Source: a virus. Taken from it: a stretch of DNA of 64,000 bases. Positions within the stretch are counted from its first letter, which is position 1; each line of letters begins with the position of its first letter. Shown piece after piece: positions 12,755 through 39,223 of the stretch. The DNA is taken from positions 32,001 through 96,000 of IMG/VR virus record IMGVR_UViG_3300031754_000002; one strand, written 5' to 3'. The notes beneath the pieces are model-generated. The model was not told the DNA's origin, searched no databases, and saw only the letters and a list, made by a program, of their open reading frames with translations. The translations under genes and the position numbers were made by a program.

Positions 12755-14059
12755 CTAGTATTCCGCACTCACTTCTAGTCCACTGCCTTCCATATAGGCA
12801 AGGCCCGTCGGATAACGATGCAACGCTGCCGCATAGCCATGAAGCTGGAACCGTGCCTGCAACGTCCCGGACAGAACCTCCTTGAACACGCTCGTATGCT
12901 TCGGCGACTCGAACAACACACTGTCGGTCGGACGTGCGCACACAATCACGTCGCGGTTTTTCCCTGCCCCAAGAGTCGCAGGAATCGCATCTGACAAAAA
13001 TGTCGGCCAGCCAAGGATCGGGGGAGCGACAGCAGGCCGCGAGTCATCGAACGTGTACGCCACGGGAGGGAGCGCTTGATGCCCAGGAACCGCGAGAGGG
13101 AGGTTCTGCAAATCCTCAGCACCCCCGAGATAGCACCAGCGAGCGGTCCGCATCAACCACACCTCCGGCGGACAGTTCCGTGCATCCCCCAGCTTTGCCG
13201 CGACCTGCGACAGCGCAGCGAACATTTCATAGCCCTGTTTACCCGTGTACTGCACTACCGACACGCCACCCGCACCGGTAGTGAGATTCAGCACACCCGC
13301 GATTCGCTGGTTCGCTTTCCCCGTGCCAGTAAACAGCGACTCCTCAAGCCTGCGGTCATAGGACTCCAACAGGTCCTTCAACACCACTACATCCAAGGCG
13401 GCAGTAGCCGGTGATTGTTCAAGCTGCTGCATCGAACAATCCGCCTGCCCCGCGAACGTCTCACACCACGATTCAACCGCCGCATCCGTGAAGTCCCGTT
13501 CCGGCGCAGGCGTGACATCAGATACTCCCGGCGCGTGAGTGCCTTCCACGATACGCGGCAGGTTCACTTCAACCACGCCCGTCGGCAAATCGAAAGTAGG
13601 GATCATGCTCGCGTAAACCCGCTTGGCCCTCGCGGCAGTGGCAAAATACTCATTGGCCCACCACGGCACCCCAAAAAACTCGCCACCAGTGACACGGCTA
13701 GGGTTCACACGAAACTCCGCGCCCTCAAGCCTCCGCTGCTGCAACCTTTCACTCTCAACAGCAATCTCTTTGGCGTGACGCTCCAACCGTGCTCTCGCCC
13801 GCTGATCATTGCTGATCTGCGCACGCGCCACGTCCGCGAAGTAGCTTGCCTGCTCCTCGCGTGGAAGATGACCCTGAAAGCGTTCATACACCATCGGCTC
13901 ACGACGTATCTCAACGCGCGGTGAAAGCCGCTGTAGCTCAGCATGGTACGCACGAGCGCTAACAACCGCTTCCGCCTCGATACGTGCCCGGACTTCGGCC
14001 GGGATCGCAGCGCCACGGTCCTCCTCGACAGTCTCGTCAAGCTCTAGCGTGTCGCTCAT
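12755..14059 (-). CDS. Major capsid protein 2 (HK97-fold paralog)
   Basis: Follows prohead protease; shares NLP, AGQ.D...Q.LEQSP and EVLSGTL..RFQ motifs with MCP 1. Confidence 0.8.
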   Translation of the reverse strand: MSDTLELDETVEEDRGAAIPAEVRARIEAEAVVSARAYHAELQRLSPRVEIRREPMVYERFQGHLPREEQASYFADVARAQISNDQRARARLERHAKEIAVESERLQQRRLEGAEFRVNPSRVTGGEFFGVPWWANEYFATAARAKRVYASMIPTFDLPTGVVEVNLPRIVEGTHAPGVSDVTPAPERDFTDAAVESWCETFAGQADCSMQQLEQSPATAALDVVVLKDLLESYDRRLEESLFTGTGKANQRIAGVLNLTTGAGGVSVVQYTGKQGYEMFAALSQVAAKLGDARNCPPEVWLMRTARWCYLGGAEDLQNLPLAVPGHQALPPVAYTFDDSRPAVAPPILGWPTFLSDAIPATLGAGKNRDVIVCARPTDSVLFESPKHTSVFKEVLSGTLQARFQLHGYAAALHRYPTGLAYMEGSGLEVSAEY

Positions 14060-15837
14060 CGCGCCAACCTCAACATGTCCAGTTCCTGCTCAGCACGACG
14101 CGTCAGATCAACCACAACAGCCGAGCGACCGTTCGTCTCCTCACTGTCATCAGCACCCTGAGCCTCATCAGCCTTACCGAGCGCGGTAGCAGCCGCTTCC
14201 AAAGCCTTCGTGACCTTCTCGTCGGACGGACTGTCCATATCACCGGTCTGTTCGGCTAGCGCCTTAGCAACAGCCTCTTTCGCCTCGTCGATCGAGTCAG
14301 ACACACCCTCGTCAGCATCGTCTCTGGCCTCAGCCTCATACTCGGCGCGTAGCTCACGCACGCGCTCCGTGTACTCCTCGCCCTTCGCCGCTGCCTTCGC
14401 TTCCAGGCCCTCCCAGAACGATGCAGGCTCAGACTCCGACGGCAGTAGACCCGAAAGCTCGTCTCCGGCCTCCGCGAGCTTATCCACCAAGCCCTGAATC
14501 AACTGTTCCTTCGCAGACGACAACGCTTTACCCGCACGGAACTCATACTCGCCATCCGTTGAGCGAATACTTGTCGTGCTACCCGTTGACGGTGATGCGC
14601 CGAATGTGACGGCACTCACATCTCCGCCGTGCAAGGTCACACCCTTCACTTTGCGGTCAGTTAGCTCATCATTCCAGTCATCATCGGTGCAGCGAAACGC
14701 GAAACTCATCTGATCCACGAGCCCGCGCTCCATCTTCAGCTTTAGCCTCTGTGCATCCACGTCCCGCGGGTCAAAGGTCGCGTTCACGAGCAGCCCCTTG
14801 GATGTTTCCTCCAGCCTCAACGTGCCCGGAATGTCCGAGTCCTTACGTTCCGTTCGTGCAAGCGGCAAGCCTTCGTGTTCCACTCGAAACACGCAATCCG
14901 GTTCCTCTTTCAATGTGCGGCGAAAACTGCCACGGGAAATAGTCTCCGTGAAGCCACCAACCGAATATGGCACATCAAAAAGTGACGCATATCCTTCAAA
15001 ATGGAACATGCCATCATCGTCTTCGCTGCCGTCCCGGAACTCACATTCACGCACCGAGAACTGCCGGTGCTCCAAGCCCTTCGCGTTACGCAGATTTTCG
15101 ACCCGCCGCTTACGCAGCTCAAACTGTGCGGCGCTACGCGAATCCTTCTCGATTTCGCCCGTGCCATCACAATCCGGGCACTCCTTACCCTTCACCTTGC
15201 CACTACCATCACACGTCGGGCACGTTTCCATGTCCTCAGTGTCGTTTTCCACCGCACGCCGACCATTCGCCTCCGGCGCATATGTGGTGACACGCCGCAC
15301 CTTCTTAGGCGTCCCCAACGTCACATTATCATCGGCGTCCACCATGTACGTCACCTGCCACAACACGTCTTCGCGTTCATACACCGCCCACTCGTCAGTC
15401 ATGTCCGAGATGTAGACGTAGGAATATTCGCCCTTTTTAGGCTTCGGGAGCGATTCGACTATCGCCTGCTGCACCATCTGGCGACGGTCATTGTAGGTTT
15501 CGCGCTCCTCAAGCGTTGACCACACCGACTTTTCTTCTTTCAGCGATCCATCACTAGACCAATTGTCGGGTATGAGCGAACTGAGTTTCAGCGCCTTGGC
15601 ACGCTTAATGATGTGCGCACGGATTGAGTCATGGCTCGCATCTCCACGTCCGACCGCTTTGATCGCTTTTTTTAGGTCGTCTTCGTCCCCGATCGGGTAC
15701 GAGCCATCGGCCATTGCTTCGCCTTTTTTTGCCATTTCGTCACGGTCGGCCTTCTTGTACTTCGCGCGCCACTCCCGCTCAAGTGACCGTTCGACCGTCA
15801 CGATGTCAGTCTCGACCGGCTCAGTCTCAACACCCAT
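14056..15837 (-). CDS. HK97-family prohead protease with extra N-terminal domains
   Basis: FEGYASLFD, ETISRGSF, HEGLPLART, QMSFAF, DVSAVTFGA; N-terminal AMADGSYPI domain and CxxCxGxG Zn finger; acidic scaffold-like C-terminus. Confidence 0.85.
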   Translation of the reverse strand: MGVETEPVETDIVTVERSLEREWRAKYKKADRDEMAKKGEAMADGSYPIGDEDDLKKAIKAVGRGDASHDSIRAHIIKRAKALKLSSLIPDNWSSDGSLKEEKSVWSTLEERETYNDRRQMVQQAIVESLPKPKKGEYSYVYISDMTDEWAVYEREDVLWQVTYMVDADDNVTLGTPKKVRRVTTYAPEANGRRAVENDTEDMETCPTCDGSGKVKGKECPDCDGTGEIEKDSRSAAQFELRKRRVENLRNAKGLEHRQFSVRECEFRDGSEDDDGMFHFEGYASLFDVPYSVGGFTETISRGSFRRTLKEEPDCVFRVEHEGLPLARTERKDSDIPGTLRLEETSKGLLVNATFDPRDVDAQRLKLKMERGLVDQMSFAFRCTDDDWNDELTDRKVKGVTLHGGDVSAVTFGASPSTGSTTSIRSTDGEYEFRAGKALSSAKEQLIQGLVDKLAEAGDELSGLLPSESEPASFWEGLEAKAAAKGEEYTERVRELRAEYEAEARDDADEGVSDSIDEAKEAVAKALAEQTGDMDSPSDEKVTKALEAAATALGKADEAQGADDSEETNGRSAVVVDLTRRAEQELDMLRLAR

Positions 15838-15896
15838 GCGGACCTCCTTCGGAAACGAAAAGCCCGCAATTTGCGGGAAGTGAGCACAACGCACCT

Positions 15897-15924: not shown

Positions 15925-16086
15925 GTGAAACAAACTGGGCTTCGACTAGAAGATGATCTACTTGCGCGGGTAGAAGCTGCTCGTGGTGACGTGCCACGTG
16001 AAGTGTTCCTTCGTCGCGCAATCGAACTTATGCTCAACACTAAACGAGAGGACTCCGATGGCAGCACGACCCGCACTGGTTCCTGA
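15925..16086 (+). CDS. Small ribbon-helix-helix-like regulator
   Basis: KQTGLRLEDDLLARVEAARGDVPREVFLRRAIE has a CopG/Arc-like pattern. Confidence 0.6.
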   Translation: MKQTGLRLEDDLLARVEAARGDVPREVFLRRAIELMLNTKREDSDGSTTRTGS

Positions 16087-16588
16087 ATCCGGCCCGTATG
16101 AGATTCTGCAAGGACTCATAGCCGAGGTGCTAGCCAACGGTGACTTTGTACCTGCGGAGGAAGCCCTGCGTATCGACAGGCTCATGCGCGAGAAGCATCC
16201 AAGACAACATGCTGCGTTTTTGGAGGCCCAGTCCTATCGCCTTTACTACGAGATACTGCAAGGTGCCTACCAAAGCCAGCGGCAGCGTTCGCGTCACCAC
16301 GCTCCCGCTAGTGAATTCGGCCGACGTGCTACCGGCAAGCACGATGATGTCTCAGTGTTTATAACGTGGCGCTGCAAGGTAGACGATGCCAACACTCAGC
16401 GAACGATCGGCGACATGACCGGAGCCGATCATCTCTATGTCGCCGACAGCTATCGCGGCGATAAGCAACGCGCAGCGATGCTAGAGGCATTTCACCGTGC
16501 AGTCGCAAAGAAGGCTGGTAGGCGCAAAACAAGCGAGGTCTTTTCAGAGGACCAGTTCCTCGCACTCTACGAAAGCATCGCTAAATAG
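16058..16588 (+). CDS. Hypothetical protein, candidate accessory factor of the RAMP cassette
   Basis: GAGAGGA RBS; 176 aa; directly precedes array 1. Confidence 0.7.
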   Translation: MAARPALVPESGPYEILQGLIAEVLANGDFVPAEEALRIDRLMREKHPRQHAAFLEAQSYRLYYEILQGAYQSQRQRSRHHAPASEFGRRATGKHDDVSVFITWRCKVDDANTQRTIGDMTGADHLYVADSYRGDKQRAAMLEAFHRAVAKKAGRRKTSEVFSEDQFLALYESIAK

Positions 16589-16603
16589 CACGACGGCCCT
16601 TGT

Positions 16604-16733
16604 TGACTGGCCCAGCCGTTGCACCTCCCCGCTGCCTTTCCGACTCCGCTGCCCACACTGCTCCTGCCCCGCCCCACGCTCCCGACTCGTCATCACAGCT
16701 CCCAGCCGAACAGGCCTGCCCAATCCTCCCGAC
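16604..16733 (+). repeat. Array 1: three CGAC-anchored units with 5-nt periodicity (putative guide-like ncRNA)
   Basis: (T/C)GAC at 16604, 16641, 16683, 16730 (spacing 37, 42, 47); pentamers end in C (19/21; the rest end in T). Confidence 0.75.
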
Positions 16734-16771
16734 CTCCTGAACTATTACTAACCAAAACACGAAAGGCCAAC

Positions 16772-17485
16772 ATGACCAGCATATTCGAGCCATACCGGCG
16801 CAAGAATTATCCGTATGTATTCGTCGCCTCGATCCACCTGCACACGATCGCGGGCGGCGTGCCCCTAAACGAGACAATTCTTGAGGGACACCTCAAGCGC
16901 AAGACCGCCGCACCCGATGACCTAATTCGCTCCGAGGTCGCCTCAATCATGGTCGAGGAGGGACTAAGTGCCGATGAGGCCATTGAGCGTGCCGCGAAAC
17001 GCAAGGGCCTTGTGGGCTTTGCGAAGGACAGCAACGGCCTTTATGTGCGCGGCTTTCAAGTCAAGGCGATGCTTGTAGAATCGGCGTGCATCGCTGCCGC
17101 CGAGGGACGCATCCCGAAGAAATGGGGCCAAATGTCCGAGCAAGGAAAGGCACTCAAGAGTTGGTTTCCCGAGCATGTGTTTGTTCTCGATGACCGGATT
17201 CACCTCGGCGTGGACGAGCCCACCGAAATTCCACAGTCGTTTATACACAAGGTAGGCCCGAAGGGGCCGATGAGCGCTATCCAGTACACGGAGCTCGTCC
17301 GCGATGCCGACGTATCCTTCGCGGTCGAGACAGACCACGACTTTCCCGAGGATGTTTGGGCCGCGATTTGGCTCACAGCCGAGCGTAACGGCCTTGGCGC
17401 ATCACGCAAGCTCGGCTATGGCACTTTTGAGAGCCGCAAATGGCAGAAAATGTCATCCCGTACCCGTAAACTTAAGGCCGCATAA
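16772..17485 (+). CDS. Stand-alone Cas7/Csm3-like RAMP superfamily protein (237 aa)
   Basis: N-terminal beta strand + GGVP; LYVRGFQVKAMLVESA (cf. IPGSSLKGxLR); C-terminal G-rich loop GLGASRKLGYGTF; GAAAGG RBS. Confidence 0.75.
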   Translation: MTSIFEPYRRKNYPYVFVASIHLHTIAGGVPLNETILEGHLKRKTAAPDDLIRSEVASIMVEEGLSADEAIERAAKRKGLVGFAKDSNGLYVRGFQVKAMLVESACIAAAEGRIPKKWGQMSEQGKALKSWFPEHVFVLDDRIHLGVDEPTEIPQSFIHKVGPKGPMSAIQYTELVRDADVSFAVETDHDFPEDVWAAIWLTAERNGLGASRKLGYGTFESRKWQKMSSRTRKLKAA

Positions 17486-17487
17486 TC

Positions 17488-17723
17488 TCTCGACACCGCC
17501 CGCTCGAAACACCGCACGAACCTGTCAGCCCATCCGACCAGTCAAACCAATCCGTCGCGCCTCGATACTATGCGCCGCACCCGACATTCCTCCTCGTCGA
17601 TACCCCTCGGCCCCGCCTATCTCCCCATCCCTTCCGACAGCCCCCCGTCGCCCTCGCCCTCACAGTACGCCCCCTCTCTCTCGACACCCCTGCCGCGACA
17701 CTCCGCACCCCTCCGCTTCCGAC
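17488..17723 (+). repeat. Array 2: five CGAC-anchored units with 5-nt periodicity (putative guide-like ncRNA)
   Basis: CGAC at 17491, 17535, 17582, 17635, 17682, 17720; e.g. cagtc aaacc aatcc gtcgc gcctc gatac tatgc gccgc. Confidence 0.75.
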
Positions 17724-17741
17724 TAACCGAAAGGACCACCG

Positions 17742-18779
17742 ATGACCGATGAGCCGAGTCGAAGCGACGAGATCAAGCACGTAGAAGGAGAGCTAAAGTC
17801 CCTTGCGAACCAAGTGGGCGTTGCGATAGGGCGTCTCCGTGCATTGCTCGGGGACGAGTTCGTCAAGAAGGTCCATGCCGCCGTGACTGGACGAGTTGCC
17901 TTTGACGAGGCGCAGCCGCTCACAGATGCGGATGCACGGGCATGGAGCGAGGCGAACCCCGGCAAGCAGGTACGTTTTACGGTGGAGTCCGAGGTCAAGC
18001 CCACAGGCGCCCGAAAGTTGGATGACTGGCTGGACGTGAAGGCACCCAAGGGCACCGTCGAGATCCGCAGCAATGAGATCAAGGAACTGGAGAAACAGCT
18101 AAAGGCGATCCCCGGTAAACTCACCGTTGCGGAGCTAGGCTGGATTCACAATCGTCTTGGCGAACTCTATAGGATGCCGGTGAAGGGCAACGCGGCACAG
18201 CAATCCTTTGCGCAAGCCTTCGGTATGGCACCATCGGAAATACATACGATCGAGGACGCGATTGTTGAGCTAGCCGACAAGCTCGGCGAGATGCGCACGG
18301 ACATTACATCGCTCCGTCAGACCGTGGGCGAGCTGCAAACCCCGTTTGAGCCATACGAGCCGCCAGTGCTCGCCAAGATACTTCGTCCGCATCTGCTCGC
18401 GCTAGACGATCACGGTGAGGACGAGTGGGCTGAGGGATCGTTCGGCTGGGGTGAGTGTTTGTGGGTGCCCGGCAAGGTGGGCATTGATGTGACGGAGATC
18501 AAGGTTGAGGCGCTGGCCGCCGGGACGGACAATATACACGGCGCGCAAGTGAAAACCTACGCCACCTATCGTGAAGACCACCACGATACCACACAGCGCG
18601 AACTTGTTGAGTGCATCGCGCGGGAGGCAGCTAAGCGGAACGCAACTGTTGTGTATCTCAGTAAGCCGGCGCATCGCCATATCCACGGCGACTATCCTGG
18701 CGACACGCCGCGTTTCCTACAGCACTGGTGTTATGCGGCGTTTTTGAGTGCGGCCCGCGCCGCCGGAGACGAGCAGTGA
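17742..18779 (+). CDS. Hypothetical protein with coiled-coil segments
   Basis: GAAAGGA RBS at end of array 2; 345 aa. Confidence 0.7.
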   Translation: MTDEPSRSDEIKHVEGELKSLANQVGVAIGRLRALLGDEFVKKVHAAVTGRVAFDEAQPLTDADARAWSEANPGKQVRFTVESEVKPTGARKLDDWLDVKAPKGTVEIRSNEIKELEKQLKAIPGKLTVAELGWIHNRLGELYRMPVKGNAAQQSFAQAFGMAPSEIHTIEDAIVELADKLGEMRTDITSLRQTVGELQTPFEPYEPPVLAKILRPHLLALDDHGEDEWAEGSFGWGECLWVPGKVGIDVTEIKVEALAAGTDNIHGAQVKTYATYREDHHDTTQRELVECIAREAAKRNATVVYLSKPAHRHIHGDYPGDTPRFLQHWCYAAFLSAARAAGDEQ

Positions 18780-19225: not shown

Positions 19226-21704
19226 CTACTTAGCTGGCGTCAACACCTTCCCGTCACCGTTCGATGACGGCACAGCCGGCTCCGGTGCATACTTCGCTTC
19301 GATGGCCTGTTCCGCTTCCGCCATCACTTTTTCAAGTAGCGTCGTGTTAATCGGCGAGTTCAGTTTATCGCCGTCCGGCAACGCCGGCAGGTCGAACAGT
19401 GCTCGTGCGTCGTTCGGCGTGAAGTAGCCTCCGAGCGTCCCGAGCGAGCCAGCGTTCGCGCGCTCAAGGGTATCCCCGCGCAGACGGTGGCTCATGTCGA
19501 TCGCCACGAACTGCCCTGGCGGGTGGATCGCGGTCATCGCGGCTTCGTAACGGCCCGTATAGTCCTGCAACGTGTTTTTCGTAAAGCCTAGCTCCTGCTG
19601 CTCGATCCCCCGATAATCGACCCCACGAGTTGTGAACAACCACGCCTTCGGCTAGGAAGGAGTGATTACCCGCAACCGCGAGGTCATAGACTGGCACCTC
19701 AACTTTCGAGCGGTCGATTTTGATTACACGCTGCAAGATAACGTCGTCGTACTCCCAACCGTAGCTCGGGCTCTGCCGGCGACCATCCCAGCCGCCAACG
19801 TTGCCGCCCGTCCATCCCTCGTCATAGCGCCCTAGTCGTATTGCTGGTCGAGTGACGAGTCGCGCCCGCTTACGCGCGCTATTGGCACCGATACGACTAT
19901 TGAAGAACACAGTCGAGAGAGCAAGTTGATACTTCTGGCCCGACCGCACACGACGGCCAGCAATCACCGCGTCACACGGCGGTCGTCCCAGGTGGACTCG
20001 TCCAGCCGGAACACCCACTTGGATGCACAAGTGGCGGATATCCTCTAGCAGGAGTCGGTTACACGATGCGAAGCTAATCGCCCCTGCCTTGTTGACACTC
20101 CCGTCTGCGTCGAGATATCCGCGCAGGAATGCTAGCTGTAGCTCCGGCTTGAGTTCGTACACCCAACCCGGCACTCGCTTTGTATGCGCGTCGCCCGTGA
20201 ACCCGCAGTCGTCAAGCAGTTCGCGTGCGTCGGCCGACGAGAAGCGCGTCCTCGTGCCTGTGCGTATCCCCCGATTGGGTGCGTTGTCTGTGTAGGGTTC
20301 TACGCCGAACTCATCGCGTACGACCTGGCAGTAGTGCTCCATGTGATCGGGCTTGCTCTCGTGGGCGAGCTCGAAACGGTTTTTGTCCTGTGAGCCATCG
20401 CCCGTGTAGAGTCCACAAAGCTCCATCGCGCCGACCGTAAGCTGGCGCCCATTGGGCGCATACTCATCACCCTGGTCCCCGAAGCCATGAGGCACGAGCA
20501 GGTAATCCTTGATCGTAACCTCATCGGCGCGAACCCAAACCGTTTCCCAGGCGCAGTCGCCACTCGCACGGCCCTCTGGCCGTCCAAAGTATCGGCGCAC
20601 TGGCAAAACATGGTTTGCCGTCAACTTGACAGTGCGAGCCGATGTCTGGATGCTCAGGAGAGGCTTGTGGCCGGTTAGTTGCCGCGAGACGACCGTTGCA
20701 GGCTCGATCCCGCGCTCACCGAGCGACCAAACCTCCTCGCCAGCCTGAATCTCGCAGATTGGCCGTGGTCCCTGCGTCGTGAACACCTGCGCTTCGGCGG
20801 GCAGACACGAAACTCGTTCAGTCAGTCCGATCATGTGCGGGGGGCACCGAAAGATCGTGGATGCGATCTCTGATGCCGACCATTGAAGCGATTCTAGGAA
20901 TTGGGAGTCCTGCGGGGATATCGTGATCGGCTTGATTTCCGTGTCACCCGTCACGACGGCTGGAAGATGCGAGCTATTCAAGCCCTGGTGCGCCGCCATA
21001 AACGAGCGAACCATTTTCTTTGTCTGGTCCGGCGACAGGTCACCCTTGACCTGGATCACGATCGACGGGTTCGCGCTATTGCGGAAGTACTGTAGCCCAT
21101 AGGTGGACTGCGAAAGCGACTTGCTAAACGCCAAGCGCTGCGCCTCAATTGGGTTAATGCCTTCCAACATTCCCGGAAGCCAGAGGAGCTTGACGTGAAA
21201 TACATCTTGCCTTGGCACAACTTTATTGAAGAACCGATACTGGAGTTCTCCTTTACGCAGCCGTTCGACATGCGCACTGTCGGCCGGTATGGGCTTGATC
21301 TGCGTCGGGTAGAGCTGCTTGTCGCGGCTGATGATCTGGCCGAAGAAGTTGCCACGAATGGCGAGGGACGCGACGAACTGGACGATCCAGTCGAAAAGCC
21401 CAATCTCGCAGTATGGTTCGGTGAGGAGGGGAGAGGGTTTTAGCTCTTTCGCCTTTCGTAGTACCCTGTTGTTGAGCAGCAGAACGGGGGAGTTCGCTAC
21501 CGAGCTAGAAAGAAGGTTAGCGCATGAGTAGACGGTCGCTATCGAGAGCGCCGCCTCTTGGCTTACACCCATGCCTCCAGACCCACCGAATCCCCCGATT
21601 TCTGAGTTCGTAGGCTACGGGGGAACGCTGTTGCCCCATTCGGTGCCCGGCCGCGCCGCGCGTGCGTCCATTGTCTGTGACAGCGCGCGAAGGATCAACG
21701 ACAT
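19226..21704 (-). pseudogene. HK97-family portal protein with intein; interrupted by an in-frame TAG (21615-17) and a frameshift (~19615)
   Basis: AALSIATVYSC, LAIRGN, SPQDSQFLES, IFRCPPHMIG, SWGxGIEQQ, TPNDARALFDLP; disruptions may be real or assembly errors. Confidence 0.8.
19629..20807 (-). mobile_element. Intein with LAGLIDADG endonuclease in portal (393 aa)
   Basis: S|CLPAEAQV...TANH...GLYTGDGS...FLRGYLDADGS...VYDLAV...VVHN|S. Confidence 0.9.
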
Positions 21705-27849: not shown

Positions 27850-28056
27850 AACTGAGGCACTACCGCCCGAATACGCGGTGATCTTCTGCGCCGGCATGAT
27901 GAGGAGGCCAAAGAGCTTCGGATCGTTGAAGGCTAAGGATCTAAACGAGCGCAAGCTAATCTTCGGATGCGATTGTGGTTGTCGTGGCGACTGGTCACTC
28001 GATGATGCGGGGCTATATGAGCGTCCGGCCCTCGACTCGCTGCTGGGGAAAGCGAC

Positions 28057-28383
28057 GTGAGACGCAACCTAAGCATCAGCTTCGAGGAAGCCTTTATCGA
28101 ACGCCTAGACTTGGAACGTGGCACTATCTCGCGGGGCCGCTGGATCGAAGGCGAGCGAGCAATCGCGCCAAATACTACCGCTGCCGAGATTGGCTCAATG
28201 GCCGCCAATGCCTTCGGTGCCATGGTTGCCGCCGAGAACGATAACCTCCGGGCAGCACGCGCTCAACCATCACCGCTCGCCCATCCCGTCGAGACCCTTG
28301 GCGAGATCGATGAGCACGTCACCGTGGAAACCCGCAAGCCCTCCTCGGTATCCCCTAAGCTGAGCGCAGACATCAAACCCTAA
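28057..28383 (+). CDS. RHH-like N-terminal domain protein
   Basis: RNLSISFEEAFIERLDLERGTISRGRWIE. Confidence 0.5.
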   Translation: MRRNLSISFEEAFIERLDLERGTISRGRWIEGERAIAPNTTAAEIGSMAANAFGAMVAAENDNLRAARAQPSPLAHPVETLGEIDEHVTVETRKPSSVSPKLSADIKP

Positions 28384-28421
28384 CCGAAGCAAACCAAACC
28401 CAAAACACGGAGACAAACACC

Positions 28422-28883
28422 ATGAGGCAGCTACAACGACAGGGCGACGTACTTCTAATCCCTATCGACAGCATCCCCGCGAACGCAACAGCCGTCGCCC
28501 GGGACGCCCGCGGGCGAATTGTGCTCGCTGAGGGTGAGCGCACTGGGCACGCGCACTGTGTTCTCGACGATGCCGCGACACTATTTCGCCAGGATGATCT
28601 CGACGAGATGGCCGACCGTTTCCTACATGTGCAGGCCGAGTGCGGACTTATCGACGCTTGGCGGTGCCGTGACCGGCGGCGAGACATCGTATGCTGGATG
28701 CCCGCATACCAAAACACGGACCGCATCGAAGCGGCCGACTATGCAATTCTCGCCCGCGAAGACATACCTGGCGTCATTGTCGAGCACGAGGAGCACCTAC
28801 ATTTCGTCGTGCTGCCCGGGGACCACATCATCCGGCCGAAGCGTGAATACCAGCCAGAGGCCCCACGTCAGGTGATGGACTGA
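28422..28883 (+). CDS. Conserved phage protein (RQGDVLL family), partner of the DUF6745-like gene
   Basis: RQGDVLL...LAEGE.TGHAH...HEEH....LPG......REY. Confidence 0.75.
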   Translation: MRQLQRQGDVLLIPIDSIPANATAVARDARGRIVLAEGERTGHAHCVLDDAATLFRQDDLDEMADRFLHVQAECGLIDAWRCRDRRRDIVCWMPAYQNTDRIEAADYAILAREDIPGVIVEHEEHLHFVVLPGDHIIRPKREYQPEAPRQVMD

Positions 28884-28917
28884 TGGCGGCTCTAATTGGT
28901 GACAGGATGCTTCGCTG

Positions 28918-30270
28918 ATGGGCAAGCTCACGAAACTAACCCCAAGCCAAACCAAGCATCTCGCGGCGAGTTATGAGGAATGGCTATCCGTCGGCCGCTG
29001 CACCGAACCAGCCGATCGGCCAGCAATGGAGACAGCGGTCCGCGCGATGTACGCCGAGATTGGCCAGCCTCCACCAGCAGTCGTCTGGCTGGACTCTCCG
29101 TTGGCTGGCGTGTGTGGCTCCTGGTTCCTATCAAACCTGTTGAAGACGTTGCGCAACGACGCAAACCAGCTCGGGGACCAGCTCAGGGACCAGCTCAGGG
29201 ACCAGCTCGGGGGCCAGCTCAGGGGCCAGCTTGGGGACCAGCTCAGGGGCCAGCTCGGGGACCAGCTCTGGGACCAGCTCTGGGGCCAGCTTGGGGGCCA
29301 GCTTGGGGACCAGCTCAGGGACCAGCTCAGGGGCCAGCTCAGGGACCAGCTCAGGGACCAGCTCTGGGGCCAGCTCGGGGGCCAGCTCAGGGGCCAGCTT
29401 GGGGACCAGCTCAGGGACCAGCTCTGGGGCCAGCTTGGGGACCAGCTCAGGGGCCAGCTCGGGGGCCAGCTCAGGGGCCAGCTCGGGGGCCAGCTCAGGG
29501 GCCAGCTCGGGGGCCAGCTCAGGGACCAGCTCAGGGGCCAGCTCGGGGACCAGCTCTGGGACCAGCTCTGGGGCCAGCTTGGGGGCCAGCTTGGGGACCA
29601 GCTCAGGGACCAGCTCGCACAATGCTGGTGGGCACAGCATGAAGCCGCGTGGATCGCATTTTACTTGTGGCCCGAGACGAACCTAGCCGTCAACTACAAG
29701 GAACAGGTAAGTCGGCGTCTCGCCCTTTGGGAGACAACCGCGCGGTCTAGCTCATGGTGGTGGCCGATGATCGGCTTGGTTGTCCTTACGGAGCGACCAT
29801 CCAACGTGTCCGTAGATGGTGAGGGCCGGCTACATGACGAGCGAGGTCCAGCGCTCGGCTACCGGGATGGGTGGGGCGTATGGTCGATCCACGGTGTACG
29901 AGTGACACCAAAGATTGTCGAGCACCCAGAGAGCCTAACGGTGCAAGAGATCCGGGACGAGCCGAACGTGGAGGTTCGACGGGTGATGCTCGAACGGTTC
30001 GGTGCGGACCGCTTCATGGCGGAAAGCAACGCTGAGCTTATCGGCGAGGATGATTGGGGGAAGCTGTGGCGGATACCCGACGCGCCAGATGAGCCAGACG
30101 GTAAGCCGCTGGTGCTCGTTGAGATGCTGAACTCAACCCCGGAGCCAGACGGCTCGGTACGCACATACTATGAGCGTGCTCACCCTGACGTGCAGACACC
30201 TTTGGCGGCGTTGGCTTGGCAGGCGAACATGAGCGAGAGCGAGTACATGCAGATGGGGGCGCAAACGTGA
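28918..30270 (+). CDS. DUF6745-like protein with tetrapeptide repeat tract
   Basis: W..SP; QL(R/G/W)(D/G) repeats; WWWP...ERP....D..GRLH...GPA..Y.DGW....HGV; NVEVRRVM; NSTPEPDG. Confidence 0.8.
   Translation: MGKLTKLTPSQTKHLAASYEEWLSVGRCTEPADRPAMETAVRAMYAEIGQPPPAVVWLDSPLAGVCGSWFLSNLLKTLRNDANQLGDQLRDQLRDQLGGQLRGQLGDQLRGQLGDQLWDQLWGQLGGQLGDQLRDQLRGQLRDQLRDQLWGQLGGQLRGQLGDQLRDQLWGQLGDQLRGQLGGQLRGQLGGQLRGQLGGQLRDQLRGQLGDQLWDQLWGQLGGQLGDQLRDQLAQCWWAQHEAAWIAFYLWPETNLAVNYKEQVSRRLALWETTARSSSWWWPMIGLVVLTERPSNVSVDGEGRLHDERGPALGYRDGWGVWSIHGVRVTPKIVEHPESLTVQEIRDEPNVEVRRVMLERFGADRFMAESNAELIGEDDWGKLWRIPDAPDEPDGKPLVLVEMLNSTPEPDGSVRTYYERAHPDVQTPLAALAWQANMSESEYMQMGAQT
29167..29616 (+). repeat. 12-bp coding tandem repeat, about 37.5 copies
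   Basis: Unit CAGCT(C/T)(A/G/T)GGG(A/G)C. Confidence 0.95.
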
Positions 30271-36973: not shown

Positions 36974-37183
36974 TTTACCTCCAAAGCCGGGACCCGTACC
37001 GACCCCCGCGCGACTGCGGGCGGGTCAGGTAGGACACGCCACACCTTTCCGACCCGGCGTGTGAGGAATAGGCAGAGGACCACGACTCCGACTCTCAGCC
37101 TCCAGCGCGGCCGGGATCGCATAGCTTCGCCGCTCAATCAGGACCGGACGGTCTGCTTCCATCGCTGCTGCTCCCTTCGCCTC

Positions 37184-37459
37184 TCAGGCTGCTGCTCGTT
37201 TCGCTGGCCGAACCTGCCACGGCTGAGCCATCCTAGAAGCACGTTTAGGCTCAGCGGAGTTCGGACCACAACCACAGACGCAGCCGTTCTGATACCCGTG
37301 ACAGACGATCGCTCGGCGTAGTTCGCCGTCGATAGCCACTAGGCGAGCAGGCTGGAAACCTGCATGCGCTAGGCCGCGAGCGATCAACGCCTCATCCGCG
37401 GGTCCGTGGGGTTGGCCTTCGCTACATCGCTTGCATGAGCAGCCGAGACTCGGTGACAT
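37184..37459 (-). CDS. Hypothetical Cys-rich protein
   Basis: AGGAGG RBS. Confidence 0.5.
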   Translation of the reverse strand: MSPSLGCSCKRCSEGQPHGPADEALIARGLAHAGFQPARLVAIDGELRRAIVCHGYQNGCVCGCGPNSAEPKRASRMAQPWQVRPAKRAAA

Positions 37460-37594
37460 TGGCCTCCTACCATAGGAGCAGTAGATTGACGACCGCGAGC
37501 GAGTAGCAGGCTAGCTATTCCTTGCCGCGACGGGGCCCGTCAAGGATGGCTATACCGAGCAAAGCAACCGTGAGGCAGCCGAGAAACGCGTACT

Positions 37595-37834
37595 TCAACG
37601 GCTCTTTGCGTCGCCCAAGACGCGGGCAGCCTCATTGACCGGCTTGAATGCCCCCAAACCCGTCGAGAACACGTCCTCGCCCACGATCCACAATGGCCCG
37701 TCGTTGACCGGATACTCGATTGCGGCCTGCCTGAGCAGCTTCTCGTCTTCGAGCATCGCCGTCAATTCCTCGACCTTGCCGTGAAGCTGCTGTGCTCGTT
37801 TAGCCCACACTGCGGCTATAGCTATTGCGCTCAT
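37595..37834 (-). CDS. Hypothetical protein
   Basis: Coupled small ORF. Confidence 0.5.
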   Translation of the reverse strand: MSAIAIAAVWAKRAQQLHGKVEELTAMLEDEKLLRQAAIEYPVNDGPLWIVGEDVFSTGLGAFKPVNEAARVLGDAKSR

Positions 37835-38046
37835 CGCCGCTCCAGCAAGTCCAGAATCCAGTCCACATCCTCAGACGCAAAGCCGCACAACCGGCGTACA
37901 TCGCTCCTTGAGAGCTTGCCTTCGTTGAGGGCAGCGAGAACGCGATCCTGCCGAGAAACGAAGGTCGCTAGCATCTCCTGGGCCTCGTCTTCGACCTCGC
38001 GCCCGTATTCGGGGTCGGTCGGGCGCCGTTTCTGAACCGGCATCAT
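37831..38046 (-). CDS. Hypothetical protein
   Basis: Coupled small ORF. Confidence 0.5.
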   Translation of the reverse strand: MMPVQKRRPTDPEYGREVEDEAQEMLATFVSRQDRVLAALNEGKLSRSDVRRLCGFASEDVDWILDLLERR

Positions 38047-38561
38047 AGCAAAGCCTCTCGGACAGATCGCCGGCGATACTGATTGCCGTCACCGCCACCC
38101 GCGAATCGGGAGTTGAAGCCAGCCGCCTCAATCCCCGCGTTCCAGGTGCCAAACTCCGCCACGACAGTGGTCGCGTAGGGCCATCGGTCATCGTTTTCCC
38201 AGCGGATAGCCCGCTCATCGTCATTGTTTGCCCGAGCGCGCGCTGGAGCCCAATCGGGGAAGGCTGGCGGCTCATCATGAAGCGCAGCCCATCGACGAAT
38301 CGCATCAACCAGTGCTTCGCGAGTCCATACCTTGCGTTCCGCGCCATTGTGTCTCGCTGAACAAACCACGCAGCGAATCGGCGCGTTTGGACCACGGCCA
38401 TCGGAGCCATTCAGCGAAGCGCCACAGTCAACGCAAGGGATCGAATAGAGAGTCCGCTTCCGACAGCGGTCTGAGCACCACTTCGGAGCCCTGCCACGCC
38501 TTTGTACTCGCTCGAAAGACGCGCCGCAGCCAGCGCAACGAAACAAACGCACGCCAGTCAT
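38043..38561 (-). CDS. Zn-finger protein with homing-endonuclease-associated repeat
   Basis: CAGCG..WCSDRCR; WTREALVDAIRRW...FGTWNAGIEAAG. Confidence 0.6.
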   Translation of the reverse strand: MTGVRLFRCAGCGASFERVQRRGRAPKWCSDRCRKRTLYSIPCVDCGASLNGSDGRGPNAPIRCVVCSARHNGAERKVWTREALVDAIRRWAALHDEPPAFPDWAPARARANNDDERAIRWENDDRWPYATTVVAEFGTWNAGIEAAGFNSRFAGGGDGNQYRRRSVREALL

Positions 38562-39223
38562 CGCCCGCGCACCCCATAGGTGTTTCGGCCGAGAAGACGC
38601 CTAACAACACCCTGGCTCAAGCCCGTCGAGAAGCAGATTTGGCGCTCAGTCAAGTGTTTCCCGGCCAACTCCGAGACCCGTGCTCGCTGCTCGTCAGTGC
38701 CCTCGTCGTCCGATCCGTTTACACGCTCCTTGGCAGCAGCAACGATCGCGTTCGTCTCGACTTTCCGGCAGAACCGCGGTGTTGTCCGGAGCGCCTTAGC
38801 GACCTCATCAACCGTCCAGCCCTTCTTCAACTCGGCTACAACGCGTTTTTCAAGCTGCTCGGCGGTCTCTTCGGTGATCTCGACCATCGGGCGCTTGCGC
38901 CAATGTTCTAGATCCGCCTCAGCCGCGTCCTTCACGGCCTTCCTGCCACCGAGCCCCACTTTGCGGTTCCCCCGAGCACACAAAACACACGACTCAGGCT
39001 CCCGTGGGATATGGAACGTGTGATTCCATCGTTCCTGCCAAAACTCGTGGGGAAGCTGCTCTGAAGCACCATCCAGGCGCACTCCTGGGGGCATCTTCGA
39101 GTCTGGTGGAGCAGCACCGCCGGACGAGTTGAACTGCGATGTGGTGCCCCACGGCAGGAGATACTTCATCTCGAAGAGGATGCGCTGCATCTCGCTCGCT
39201 AGCTTCTCGGGATCGTCGGTCAT
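38558..39223 (-). CDS. Putative HTH transcriptional regulator (possible late activator)
   Basis: Two HTH-like segments (GWTVDEVAKAL; LTERQICFSTGLSQGVVRR); lies upstream of packaging genes. Confidence 0.5.
   Translation of the reverse strand: MTDDPEKLASEMQRILFEMKYLLPWGTTSQFNSSGGAAPPDSKMPPGVRLDGASEQLPHEFWQERWNHTFHIPREPESCVLCARGNRKVGLGGRKAVKDAAEADLEHWRKRPMVEITEETAEQLEKRVVAELKKGWTVDEVAKALRTTPRFCRKVETNAIVAAAKERVNGSDDEGTDEQRARVSELAGKHLTERQICFSTGLSQGVVRRLLGRNTYGVRGR

What the first reader, a model, noticed from the sequence alone, without database searches (positions are those of the whole stretch)
17488..17723. Array 2: five more units with the same grammar, possibly encoding gapped target sequences
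Anchors are tctcgac, atccgac, acccgac, ttccgac, tctcgac and ttccgac, spaced 44, 47, 53, 47 and 38 nt. The two 47-nt units are perfectly phased: cagtc aaacc aatcc gtcgc gcctc gatac tatgc gccgc (8/8 end in C) and agccc cccgt cgccc tcgcc ctcac agtac gcccc ctctc (7/8). The other three fit with one or two single-base slips, which could be biology or the indel errors seen elsewhere in this assembly. Inference: the variable positions (for example CA-AA-AA-GT-GC-GA-TA-GC) spell a non-contiguous target.
Basis: partly seen in the sequence, partly recalled or inferred. Interest (0 to 1): 0.8.

Follow-up and report, generated by a model that had tools for sequence, protein, structure and literature searches.

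The report
Phage VIPR guide-RNA array, C-type
This C-rich stretch is one of two guide arrays of a phage VIPR system, a CRISPR-like RNA-guided DNA-silencing system first described in 2026 preprints. It is a divergent version whose five-base repeats carry cytosines on the gene's strand where the published ones carry guanines.

Summary
In detail: anchors, spacings and pentamer phasing are exactly as described. In the window alone the signal is modest (lag-5 cytosine autocorrelation z 2.1-2.5). In about 100 related loci it is overwhelming.

The gene between the two arrays (16772-17485) is a Cas7-like RAMP. Its family profile matches the validated Vipr of Escherichia phage SUSP1 (hhalign 95.7%, E 8.6e-9). 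The arrays are therefore vrRNA arrays of a VIPR system (bioRxiv 10.64898/2026.04.26.720920).

- Arrays are hypervariable between close relatives.
- The published 1-nt-skip code is the only gap length that gives multi-locus, codon-phased hits in this family.
- One guide of Array 1 spells the E-W-R-Q-A-V-Q-D motif of the gene that follows type II vipr genes.
- No target was found for Array 2 itself.

Differences from the published systems: the fixed triplet is S-C-C on the vipr sense strand (G-G-S only on the antisense strand), units are separated by GAC alone with no 3' tail, the G-reading residues are replaced, and the partner gene is new. Which strand is the RNA remains open; I favour sense.

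This scan has already noted VIPR-like arrays in at least 322 other genomes, so I file this as a new variant of a known kind.

The parts
15925..16086 (+). Small ribbon-helix-helix-like gene that heads the cassette
   Evidence: Weak Pfam RHH_1 match (E 0.007, below the cut-off). ORF read.
16058..16588 (+). p176, the conserved partner (vap-like accessory) gene
   Evidence: Found on the same strand next to the vipr homologue in 54 of 104 loci. The AF2 model (pLDDT 90.9) is helical with no convincing PDB match. It is not homologous to SUSP1 vap1.
16589..16771 (+). Array 1: C-rich pentamer array with CCGAC anchors at 16641, 16683 and 16730. It ends in a Shine-Dalgarno-like AAAGG before the vipr start codon.
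   Evidence: lag-5 z 3.6.
16645..16683 (+). Array 1 unit 2: a guide whose NN dinucleotides (TC TG AC GC TG CG CA TC), read with a 1-nt skip, are the antisense of codons for E-W-R-Q-A-V-Q-D
   Evidence: It matches the N-terminal motif of the gene after type II vipr at 15/16 in three loci and 14/16 in five, with the skip on the wobble base. There is one exact IMG/VR hit, at that site in L224.
16772..17485 (+). vipr homologue (237 aa), a single-RRM Cas7-like RAMP with G-loop GLGASRKLGYG
   Evidence: AF2 pLDDT 85.7. Foldseek hits Cas7/Csm3/Cmr4/gRAMP at E 4e-6. hhalign against the SUSP1-type Vipr profile gives 95.7%, E 8.6e-9. There are 95 homologues and no Pfam family.
17486..17741 (+). Array 2 (the finding): intergenic pentamer array with C 0.50 and G 0.16
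   Evidence: No Rfam family. No more structure than shuffles on either strand.
17492..17535 (+). Array 2 unit 1 (44 nt; one phase slip)
   Evidence: the backward phasing is my own reading of the sequence.
17536..17582 (+). Array 2 unit 2 (47 nt; 8/8 pentamers end in C; NN = CA AA AA GT GC GA TA GC, then AC)
   Evidence: No convincing target.
17583..17635 (+). Array 2 unit 3 (53 nt; internal degenerate anchor tcgat)
   Evidence: and the sequence.
17636..17682 (+). Array 2 unit 4 (47 nt; 7/8 pentamers end in C)
   Evidence: The exact 9-NN scan of IMG/VR gave 0 hits.
17683..17720 (+). Array 2 units 5 and 6 (14 and 24 nt; short)
17721..17741 (+). Last handle (GAC TAACC) followed by GAAAGG and the start codon of the next gene. 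The same ending is found in Array 1.
   Evidence: The same array-to-Shine-Dalgarno junction is seen in relatives.
17742..18779 (+). p345, the downstream gene of unknown function. It is not conserved in related loci.
15863..15877 (-). Intrinsic-terminator-like hairpin with a T run on the minus strand, between the cassette and the prohead protease gene
   Evidence: It would end any antisense transcript that crosses the cassette.

Best explanation
Array 2 (17486-17741) and Array 1 (16589-16771) are the guide-RNA (vrRNA) arrays of a divergent VIPR system. The system sits as a + strand cassette between the portal and prohead-protease genes of a 106-kb phage. Its order is RHH gene, p176 accessory gene, Array 1, vipr homologue, Array 2.

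By homology with the SUSP1 system (inferred, not shown here), copies of the 237-aa Vipr protein line up along the transcript, one per pentamer. They bury the constant triplet and expose the two variable bases. The string of exposed dinucleotides pairs with double-stranded DNA while skipping every third base, usually the codon wobble base. This silences genes of rival mobile elements, other VIPR systems among them.

Each stretch between GAC punctuation marks (5-10 pentamers) is one guide.

Sub-claim, odds about 0.6-0.65: the RNA is the C-rich sense strand, co-transcribed with the genes, so the constant triplet is S-C-C rather than the published G-G-Y. If that is wrong, the guides are G-G-S/NN RNAs made antisense to the operon.
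For: Shown here:
- RAMP fold of the 237-aa protein.
- Profile homology to the validated Vipr family: 95.7%, E 8.6e-9, G-loop aligned.
- Five-base periodicity with two near-uniform positions, one semi-conserved position (C .47, G .28) and two C positions (.74.99).
- Anchor spacing quantised at 5n+3.
- The same array type flanks the homologue in 68 of 95 loci, including the cultured Microcystis phage Mae-JY09.
- Arrays fail to align between loci whose flanking genes are 84-88% identical.
- Perfect gapped matches of 194 family guides at skip 0/1/2/3 number 0/19/1/1, against 0-2 in two order-shuffles. The hits fall on vipr codons with the wobble base skipped. One guide reaches 27 loci, against at most 5 for shuffles and 3 for other skips.
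- Window guide A1u2 against the vap1-like E-W-R-Q-A-V-Q-D motif.
- No self-target in the phage's own genome.

From the literature: the mechanism, the skip rule and VIPR-versus-VIPR targeting.

For the sense strand:
- 76 arrays carry C on the sense strand and 5 carry G. All 28 arrays that lie between p176 and vipr carry C on the sense strand.
- Type II tracts are co-oriented with vipr 143 to 2.
- Arrays abut the Shine-Dalgarno sequence of the next gene.
- In the inverted-array loci L095 and L047 a strong terminator separates vipr from the array.
- In Mae-JY09 the order is vipr, array, hairpin, at the end of an operon in a genome with 63 of 66 genes on that strand.
- The SUSP1 G-reading residues D177, W178 and R138 pair with A210, S211 and T173 here.
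Against: - No RNA data, so neither expression, nor processing at GAC, nor the strand is shown.
- No target was found for any Array 2 unit.
- The window's arrays are looser than those of relatives: position 4 is C in only 17 of 35 pentamers. Array 2 could therefore be partly decayed.
- The family target signal rests on few distinct guides. The number of guides with at least one hit equals that of shuffles.
- The A1u2 hit is one meaningful exact match among 38, with a rough chance estimate of about 0.01.
- Against the sense strand: the reverse complement reproduces the published order exactly (GG, semi-conserved base, NN). Long untranslated C-rich, G-poor RNA is an ideal Rho substrate (my own knowledge). 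Terminator-like hairpins near array ends point both ways.
Confidence: 0.8

Rival explanations
1. It is the same VIPR system, but the functional guides are canonical-like G-G-S/NN RNAs transcribed from the minus strand. They would be antisense to vipr and p176. In this phage they could be made by read-through from the minus-strand portal operon, ending at the minus-strand terminator at 15863-15877.
For: The reverse complement of the family consensus is GG, then a semi-conserved base, then NN. That is the order of validated vrRNAs, and all seven published types are described with G-type repeats. The cassette lies against the grain of the head genes, with a minus-strand terminator at its far end. 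G-rich RNA would escape Rho (my own knowledge). Some strong hairpins with T runs face this way, in L077 and L027.
Against: - 94% of arrays would then be antisense to the genes they are wedged between, with no room for promoters.
- In L095 and L047 the G strand starts within 10 nt after a strong terminator.
- Mae-JY09 has almost no minus-strand transcription units.
- The residues that read G1 and G2 in SUSP1 Vipr are not kept.
- Non-GGY triplets are already reported for other Vipr-like clades.
Confidence: 0.3
2. Array 2 is a decayed or non-functional remnant. It would be a former guide array that now serves only as an intercistronic spacer and 5' leader for the downstream gene, while Array 1 still works.
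For: Array 2 has weaker periodicity than Array 1 (z 2.1 against 3.6). It also has slips, two very short units and a degenerate anchor, and no target was found. The downstream gene p345 is not part of the conserved module.
Against: Two units are almost perfectly phased. The array keeps the family's terminal handle and the junction with the next gene's Shine-Dalgarno sequence. Many relatives also carry arrays downstream of vipr. The exact-match searches used here are insensitive, so a missing target says little.
Confidence: 0.12
3. The C-rich, G-poor spacers are ordinary regulatory RNA, either Rho-utilisation sites or unstructured leaders that tune polarity and translation in the operon, with no guide function.
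For: C at or above 0.46 and G at or below 0.18 over 180-256 nt, with no more structure than shuffles on the sense strand (z +1.36). That is the classic composition of rut sites (rut properties from my own knowledge).
Against: This does not explain the 5-nt phasing, the 5n+3 quantised anchors, arrays of up to 3 kb, or the hypervariability next to conserved genes. Nor does it explain the strict association with a Vipr homologue or the codon-phased gapped matches.
Confidence: 0.04
4. The stretch is protein-coding: a proline-rich extension reached by frameshift or an alternative start. ORF 17304-17726 is open across it.
For: One + frame is open through 17486-17726.
Against: Open frames are expected in G- and T-poor sequence. 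The periodicity is 5, not 3. Arrays do not align between close relatives and vary from 0.2 to 3 kb.
Confidence: 0.01

Closest known systems
Type II VIPR of Escherichia phage SUSP1 (vipr, vap1, four vrRNAs; bioRxiv 10.64898/2026.04.26.720920, .720927 and 10.64898/2026.10.15.759431)
   Same: Both are phage-encoded. Both have a small single-RRM RAMP with profile-level homology and a two-gene core with a partner gene. Intergenic arrays of pentamers (constant triplet, variable dinucleotide) lie on both sides of vipr, and arrays are co-oriented with vipr. The 1-nt-skip, wobble-phased code applies, and some guides are aimed at rival VIPR genes.
   Different: The constant triplet on the vipr strand is S-C-C, not G-G-Y. 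There is no structured 3' tail or pseudoknot; units are separated by GAC plus a short handle (CCGAC-TACCC in relatives). Units have 5-10 pentamers rather than 9-16. Arrays sit between genes of one operon and reach 3 kb in relatives. The G-loop reads G-A-S-R instead of G-D-W-R. The protein is 237 aa with an extra helical insert. The partner p176 is unrelated to vap1.
Non-canonical VIPR-like arrays found by entropy periodicity (bioRxiv 10.64898/2026.10.21.760802: GAC/NN, CAC/NN, WGT/NN, TGH/NN)
   Same: Five-base arrays with a constant triplet other than GGY, next to Vipr-like folds. One triplet position can be degenerate.
   Different: An S-C-C triplet is not among the examples named in the text. 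I could not see their figure S10 or tables, so overlap with this clade can be neither shown nor excluded.
'Staggered' vrRNA arrays (legend of fig. S18, bioRxiv 10.64898/2026.04.26.720920)
   Same: Guides are contiguous: the end of one marks the start of the next, with no long tail between them.
   Different: Only the legend is available. The type, motif and orientation of those arrays are unknown to me, and they were not validated by small-RNA sequencing in that paper.
Class 1 CRISPR-Cas backbone (Cas7/Csm3/Cmr4 on crRNA)
   Same: RRM fold with G-loop and thumb. The best structural matches are type III and type VII Cas7 proteins. A protein filament forms on a guide RNA with periodic base flipping.
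   Different: There are no CRISPR repeats, no spacers of foreign composition and no other cas genes. The period is 5 nt with three buried bases, rather than 6 nt with one flipped base.

Membership tests
VIPR system | Vipr protein: a minimal RAMP (one RRM, G-loop, thumb) | tested here: met
   AF2 pLDDT 85.7 and pTM 0.77. Foldseek hits Cas7/Csm3/Cmr4/gRAMP and type VII Cas7 at E 4e-6 to 3e-4, TM about 0.4-0.5. The G-loop NGLGASRxxGYG is conserved.
VIPR system | Sequence homology to an experimentally validated Vipr | tested here: met
   hhalign of the family profile A1 against the SUSP1-type profile A4 gives probability 95.7%, E 8.6e-9 over 132 columns. A single-sequence comparison is weak.
VIPR system | Tandem pentanucleotide repeats (constant triplet, hypervariable dinucleotide) in intergenic DNA that flanks vipr | tested here: met
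   Family. Window: lag-5 z 3.6 (Array 1) and 2.1-2.5 (Array 2).
VIPR system | Constant motif G-G-Y (or NNNGG, YNNNG, NNNNG) on the vrRNA strand | tested here: inconclusive
   The vipr sense strand carries N-N-S-C-C. G-G-S-N-N appears only on the antisense strand. The transcribed strand is unknown.
VIPR system | G-reading residues of SUSP1 Vipr (D177, W178, R138; paper .720927) | tested here: not met
   In the hhalign pairing they face A210 (invariant), S211 and T173. R179 is kept as R212.
VIPR system | Guides specify targets by NN pairing with a 1-nt skip, mostly on the wobble base | tested here: met
   Family guides. Window Array 1 unit 2. For Array 2 units no target was found, so that part is inconclusive.
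VIPR system | Adjacent accessory (vap) gene | tested here: met
   p176 is a conserved same-strand neighbour in 54 of 104 loci. It is not vap1 and its fold is unassigned.
VIPR system | vrRNAs are expressed, processed and bound by Vipr | not testable with these tools
   No RNA run could be listed. Complex prediction does not take RNA.
Type II VIPR (SUSP1 clade) | 9-16 GGY/NN repeats followed by a conserved structured 3' tail, with vap1 as partner | tested here: not met
   There is no tail, only GAC punctuation. 62 type II loci show GGC/GGT-NN tracts that end in a hairpin tail. vap1 is not homologous to p176.
CRISPR-Cas (class 1) | CRISPR repeat-spacer array and a multi-gene cas operon | tested here: not met
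   No direct repeats of 20 nt or more around the gene. No cas families in the neighbouring genes.
Rho-utilisation site | At least about 80 nt of C-rich, G-poor, unstructured untranslated RNA | tested here: inconclusive
   Composition and lack of structure fit, but this explains none of the periodic, hypervariable or target features. Rho dependence is not testable here.

The most novel reading that the evidence does not exclude
The guides are the C-rich sense transcripts themselves: an S-C-C/NN code that mirrors G-G-Y/NN, read by a Vipr clade whose guanine-reading residues (D-W in the G-loop, R in the thumb) have been replaced by A-S and T. The arrays would double as the intercistronic spacers of the vipr operon and be cut at GAC marks into tail-less guides of 5-10 pentamers. 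At least one guide would be aimed across VIPR types, at the vap1-like gene of type II systems.
Probability: 0.55. Interest if true: 0.6.

Novelty: new variant of a known kind. Interest (0 to 1): 0.45.

Why it matters
VIPR is a months-old class of RNA-guided DNA recognition with a gapped code. This clade has about 100 loci in soil and freshwater phage contigs, including the cultured Microcystis phage Mae-JY09.

It would show how far the protein-RNA grip can drift while the 1-nt-skip code stays. If the sense-strand reading holds, the drift is cytosines instead of guanines, no 3' tail, kilobase-long arrays embedded in an operon, and a new partner protein.

That bears on how the constant triplet is read, on how to design orthogonal Vipr/guide pairs, and on how VIPR systems of different types fight each other.

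For annotation, it explains long C-rich 'non-coding' tracts in high-GC phage genomes, which gene callers turn into proline-rich ORFs.

Tried and rejected
- Plain Fourier periodicity on Array 2 as a whole was not significant, because the phase resets at the anchors.
- The CGAC count in Array 2 is not above dinucleotide shuffles.
- No DNA match in GenBank phages.
- No close relative above 60% identity in IMG/VR or JGI metagenomes, so no base-by-base comparison of Array 2 with a sister phage was possible.
- No RNA holder was listed for the region.
- No Rfam family, including hammerhead ribozymes, in the window cassette or in 14 related loci.
- The promoter scan found nothing. Terminator scans gave mixed directions and could not settle the strand. 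A crude ORF-orientation count was uninformative.
- p176 has no Foldseek or VIA-align match worth naming (best Z 5.0).
- Target searches for Array 2:
  - own genome: nothing above shuffles;
  - local 2.5-Mb set: nothing above shuffles;
  - unit 2, 16-base pattern in IMG/VR: 16 scattered hits (GC 27-64%), whose shared Q-K/N-N-V-A-E peptide is forced by the pattern itself;
  - unit 2, 18-base pattern in 185,579 genomes: 10 unrelated hits, about the number expected by chance;
  - unit 4, 18-base pattern in IMG/VR: 0 hits.
- An all-offset scan of the arrays was swamped by C-rich off-phase words that match GC-rich codon periodicity, so I did not use it.
- The resemblance between the family handle (reverse complement GGGTAGTC) and the start of the SUSP1 tail was dropped as evidence, because other type II tails differ.
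- A frameshifted proline-rich coding reading was rejected.

Full report
**What is there.**
The finding covers the whole intergenic space 17486-17741 between two + strand genes, 16772-17485 and 17742-18779. The two 47-nt units parse into pentamers that end in C in 8/8 and 7/8 cases. Composition is C 0.50 and G 0.16.

A second spacer of the same kind lies at 16589-16771, with CCGAC at 16641, 16683 and 16730. Both spacers end with ...CGAC-TAACC-like, then GAAAGG, then the start codon of the next gene.

The window is part of a 105,858-bp IMG/VR virus record. The + strand cassette lies against the grain, between the prohead protease gene (14056-15894, minus strand) and an intein-bearing portal gene (19464-21572, minus strand).

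**Is it more than chance?**
Within the window alone the case is modest.
- Lag-5 autocorrelation of C is the largest lag in both spacers. It gives z 3.6 for Array 1 and z 2.1-2.5 (p 0.006-0.016) for Array 2 against dinucleotide shuffles.
- The CGAC count in Array 2 (7) is not above shuffles (4.9).
- A global Fourier test fails because the phase resets at each anchor.

The decisive evidence is comparative. The 237-aa protein has 95 homologues and no Pfam family. I fetched 80 viral and 25 metagenomic loci that encode relatives.
- Most of these loci carry C-rich, G-poor tracts of 0.2-3 kb next to the gene.
- Over 1961 CGAC sites the C frequency peaks at -10, -5, 0, +3, +8 and +13.
- Anchor spacings pile up at 8, 13, 18 ... 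53, that is 5n+3: 709 of 1902, where 380 would be expected.
- Eleven long arrays all show lag-5/10/15 autocorrelation and none at lag 3, which excludes coding.
- In 194 cleanly phased units, positions 1-2 are near uniform. Position 3 is C .47 and G .28, position 4 is C .74, and position 5 is C .99 (the last partly by selection of the units).

**The protein.**
An AlphaFold model (pLDDT 85.7) matches type III, type VII and type III-E Cas7 proteins by Foldseek (E 4e-6). A literature search then found the VIPR preprints. They describe:
- Vipr, a minimal RAMP of phages;
- a partner gene, vap;
- vrRNAs made of YNNGG pentamers, whose NN bases pair with double-stranded DNA while skipping every third base.

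I located the SUSP1 locus: vipr at 28474-29061 and vap1 at 28031-28471 of KT454805, with GGT-NN tracts on the gene strand. From it I built a type II profile. The p237 family profile matches that profile with hhalign probability 95.7% and E 8.6e-9 over 132 columns, including the G-loop. The gene is therefore a Vipr homologue, and the spacers are its arrays.

The upstream 176-aa gene is the conserved partner, present in 54 of 104 loci. It is unrelated to vap1 and has no assignable fold.

**Do the arrays behave as guides?**
- *Hypervariability.* In pairs of loci whose p176 and vipr genes are 80-88% identical in DNA, the array between them does not align at all.
- *The published code applied to this family.* I took the NN of 194 clean units and searched 2.56 Mb of local sequence with the arrays masked. 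Perfect matches at skip 0/1/2/3 were 0/19/1/1. Guides with shuffled NN order gave 0-2 in two rounds.
- *Where the 19 hits fall.* They come from two guides that land on conserved vipr codons. One lands on Q-G-F-G-R-Y-E of the G-loop. The other lands on the antisense of K-V-A-E-G-W-L-K. In both, every skipped base is the wobble position. Counted per guide, the excess lies only in these multi-locus hits: 27 and 11 loci, against at most 5 for shuffles and 3 for other skips.
- *A guide from this window.* Array 1 unit 2 (NN TC TG AC GC TG CG CA TC), read with one skipped base, is the antisense of codons for E-W-R-Q-A-V-Q-D. That is the conserved N-terminal motif of the gene immediately after type II vipr genes. 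It matches 15/16 in three loci and 14/16 in five, always in codon phase. An exact-pattern scan of IMG/VR gave 38 hits. Of these, 37 look random, and one lies 36 nt after a type II vipr and encodes ...HPEWRQAVQDML.... My rough estimate for such a coincidence is about 0.01.
- *Fit with the literature.* Guides aimed at rival vipr and vap1 genes are reported in the October 2026 preprint.
- *Self-targeting.* There is none in this phage.
- *Array 2 itself.* I found no target. The local search is no better than shuffles. Unit 2 gives scattered, chance-level exact hits in IMG/VR and in 185,579 genomes. Unit 4 gives none. These exact-match scans are insensitive.

**How it differs from the published systems, and the open point.**
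In 62 type II loci the GG tracts are on the vipr sense strand 143 to 2, and each ends in a hairpin tail. In this family the sense strand carries N-N-S-C-C. Of the arrays adjacent to the gene block, 76 carry C on the sense strand and 5 carry G. All 28 arrays that sit between p176 and vipr carry C on the sense strand. There is no tail, only GAC plus a short handle.

Either the RNA is the sense C-rich strand with a new constant triplet, or it is a G-G-S/NN RNA made antisense to the operon.

For the sense strand:
- Arrays abut the Shine-Dalgarno sequence of the next gene and leave no room for promoters.
- In the inverted-array loci L095 and L047 a strong terminator lies directly between vipr and the array. 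In L095 promoter-like -10 boxes lie at the far end of the array.
- In Mae-JY09 the order is vipr, array, hairpin, at the end of a long operon in a genome with 63 of 66 genes on that strand.
- The residues that read G1 and G2 in the SUSP1 structure (D177, W178, R138) are A, S and T here.
- Non-GGY triplets are already reported for other Vipr-like clades.

For the antisense strand:
- The reverse complement reproduces the published order exactly.
- Untranslated C-rich RNA invites Rho.
- In this phage the minus strand is the direction of the flanking head genes, with a minus-strand terminator at 15863-15877.
- Some hairpins point that way.

I put the sense reading at about 0.6-0.65. The predicted DNA target is the same under either reading, so target searches cannot settle it.

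**Other readings.**
- A rut site or plain leader fits the composition and the lack of structure, but nothing else.
- A coding reading is excluded by the period of 5 and by the hypervariability.
- Array 2 could be partly decayed. Its phasing is looser than that of Array 1, it has two very short units, and the gene after it is not part of the conserved module.

**Verdict.**
The class is already described in 2026 preprints, and this scan has noted it in at least 322 other genomes. I therefore file this as a new variant of a known kind: a divergent Vipr clade with C-on-sense, tail-less, GAC-punctuated arrays and a new partner gene. The transcribed strand and the targets of Array 2 remain to be shown.

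Noticed in passing
L010:1646-4480 and L017:4516-6605: Two related loci carry a G-on-sense array upstream and a C-on-sense array downstream of vipr-p176. Between the two loci the gene cassette is inverted relative to the same flanking genes. This looks like recombination between the two oppositely oriented arrays flipping the cassette.
   Followed up: partly
L058:5713 (guide) and L058:5661 (target): The first unit after the vipr stop codon matches its own vipr G-loop codons 14/14 under the 1-nt-skip rule, as well as those of at least 11 other loci. This could be autoregulation, or an unavoidable self-match of an anti-vipr guide.
   Followed up: no
window 19464-21572 (- strand): The portal gene carries an intein with a LAGLIDADG homing-endonuclease domain (Pfam Phage_portal, Intein_splicing, LAGLIDADG_3).
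   Followed up: no
window 14056-15894 (- strand): The prohead protease ORF (Peptidase_S78) has a long N-terminal part with a weak DnaJ-type CXXCXGXG zinc-finger match (E 1e-4, below Pfam's cut-off). A minus-strand terminator-like hairpin (15863-15877) lies inside its first codons, so the annotated GTG start is probably too far upstream.
   Followed up: no
window 29165-29616: There is a 12-nt tandem repeat of 37.7 copies (unit ACCAGCTCAGGG, 87% matches) inside ORF 28918-30270, which would give a 4-residue protein repeat.
   Followed up: no
L127 (PP395641.1) 37174-38976: The cultured Microcystis phage Mae-JY09 carries the same module at its right end: a 179-aa gene at 37174-37713 in the position p176 holds in this window (homology not tested), a vipr homologue (31% identity), a 400-nt C-rich CGAC-punctuated array, then a strong hairpin. 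All parts are annotated as hypothetical or left unannotated. It would be a tractable system for experiments.
   Followed up: partly
L095:2440-2500 and L047:2030-2080: Strong intrinsic terminators sit between vipr (or a small gene after it) and an inverted array. In L095 the far end of the array has back-to-back -10-like boxes (TATAGT and TATACT) next to a divergent gene.
   Followed up: partly
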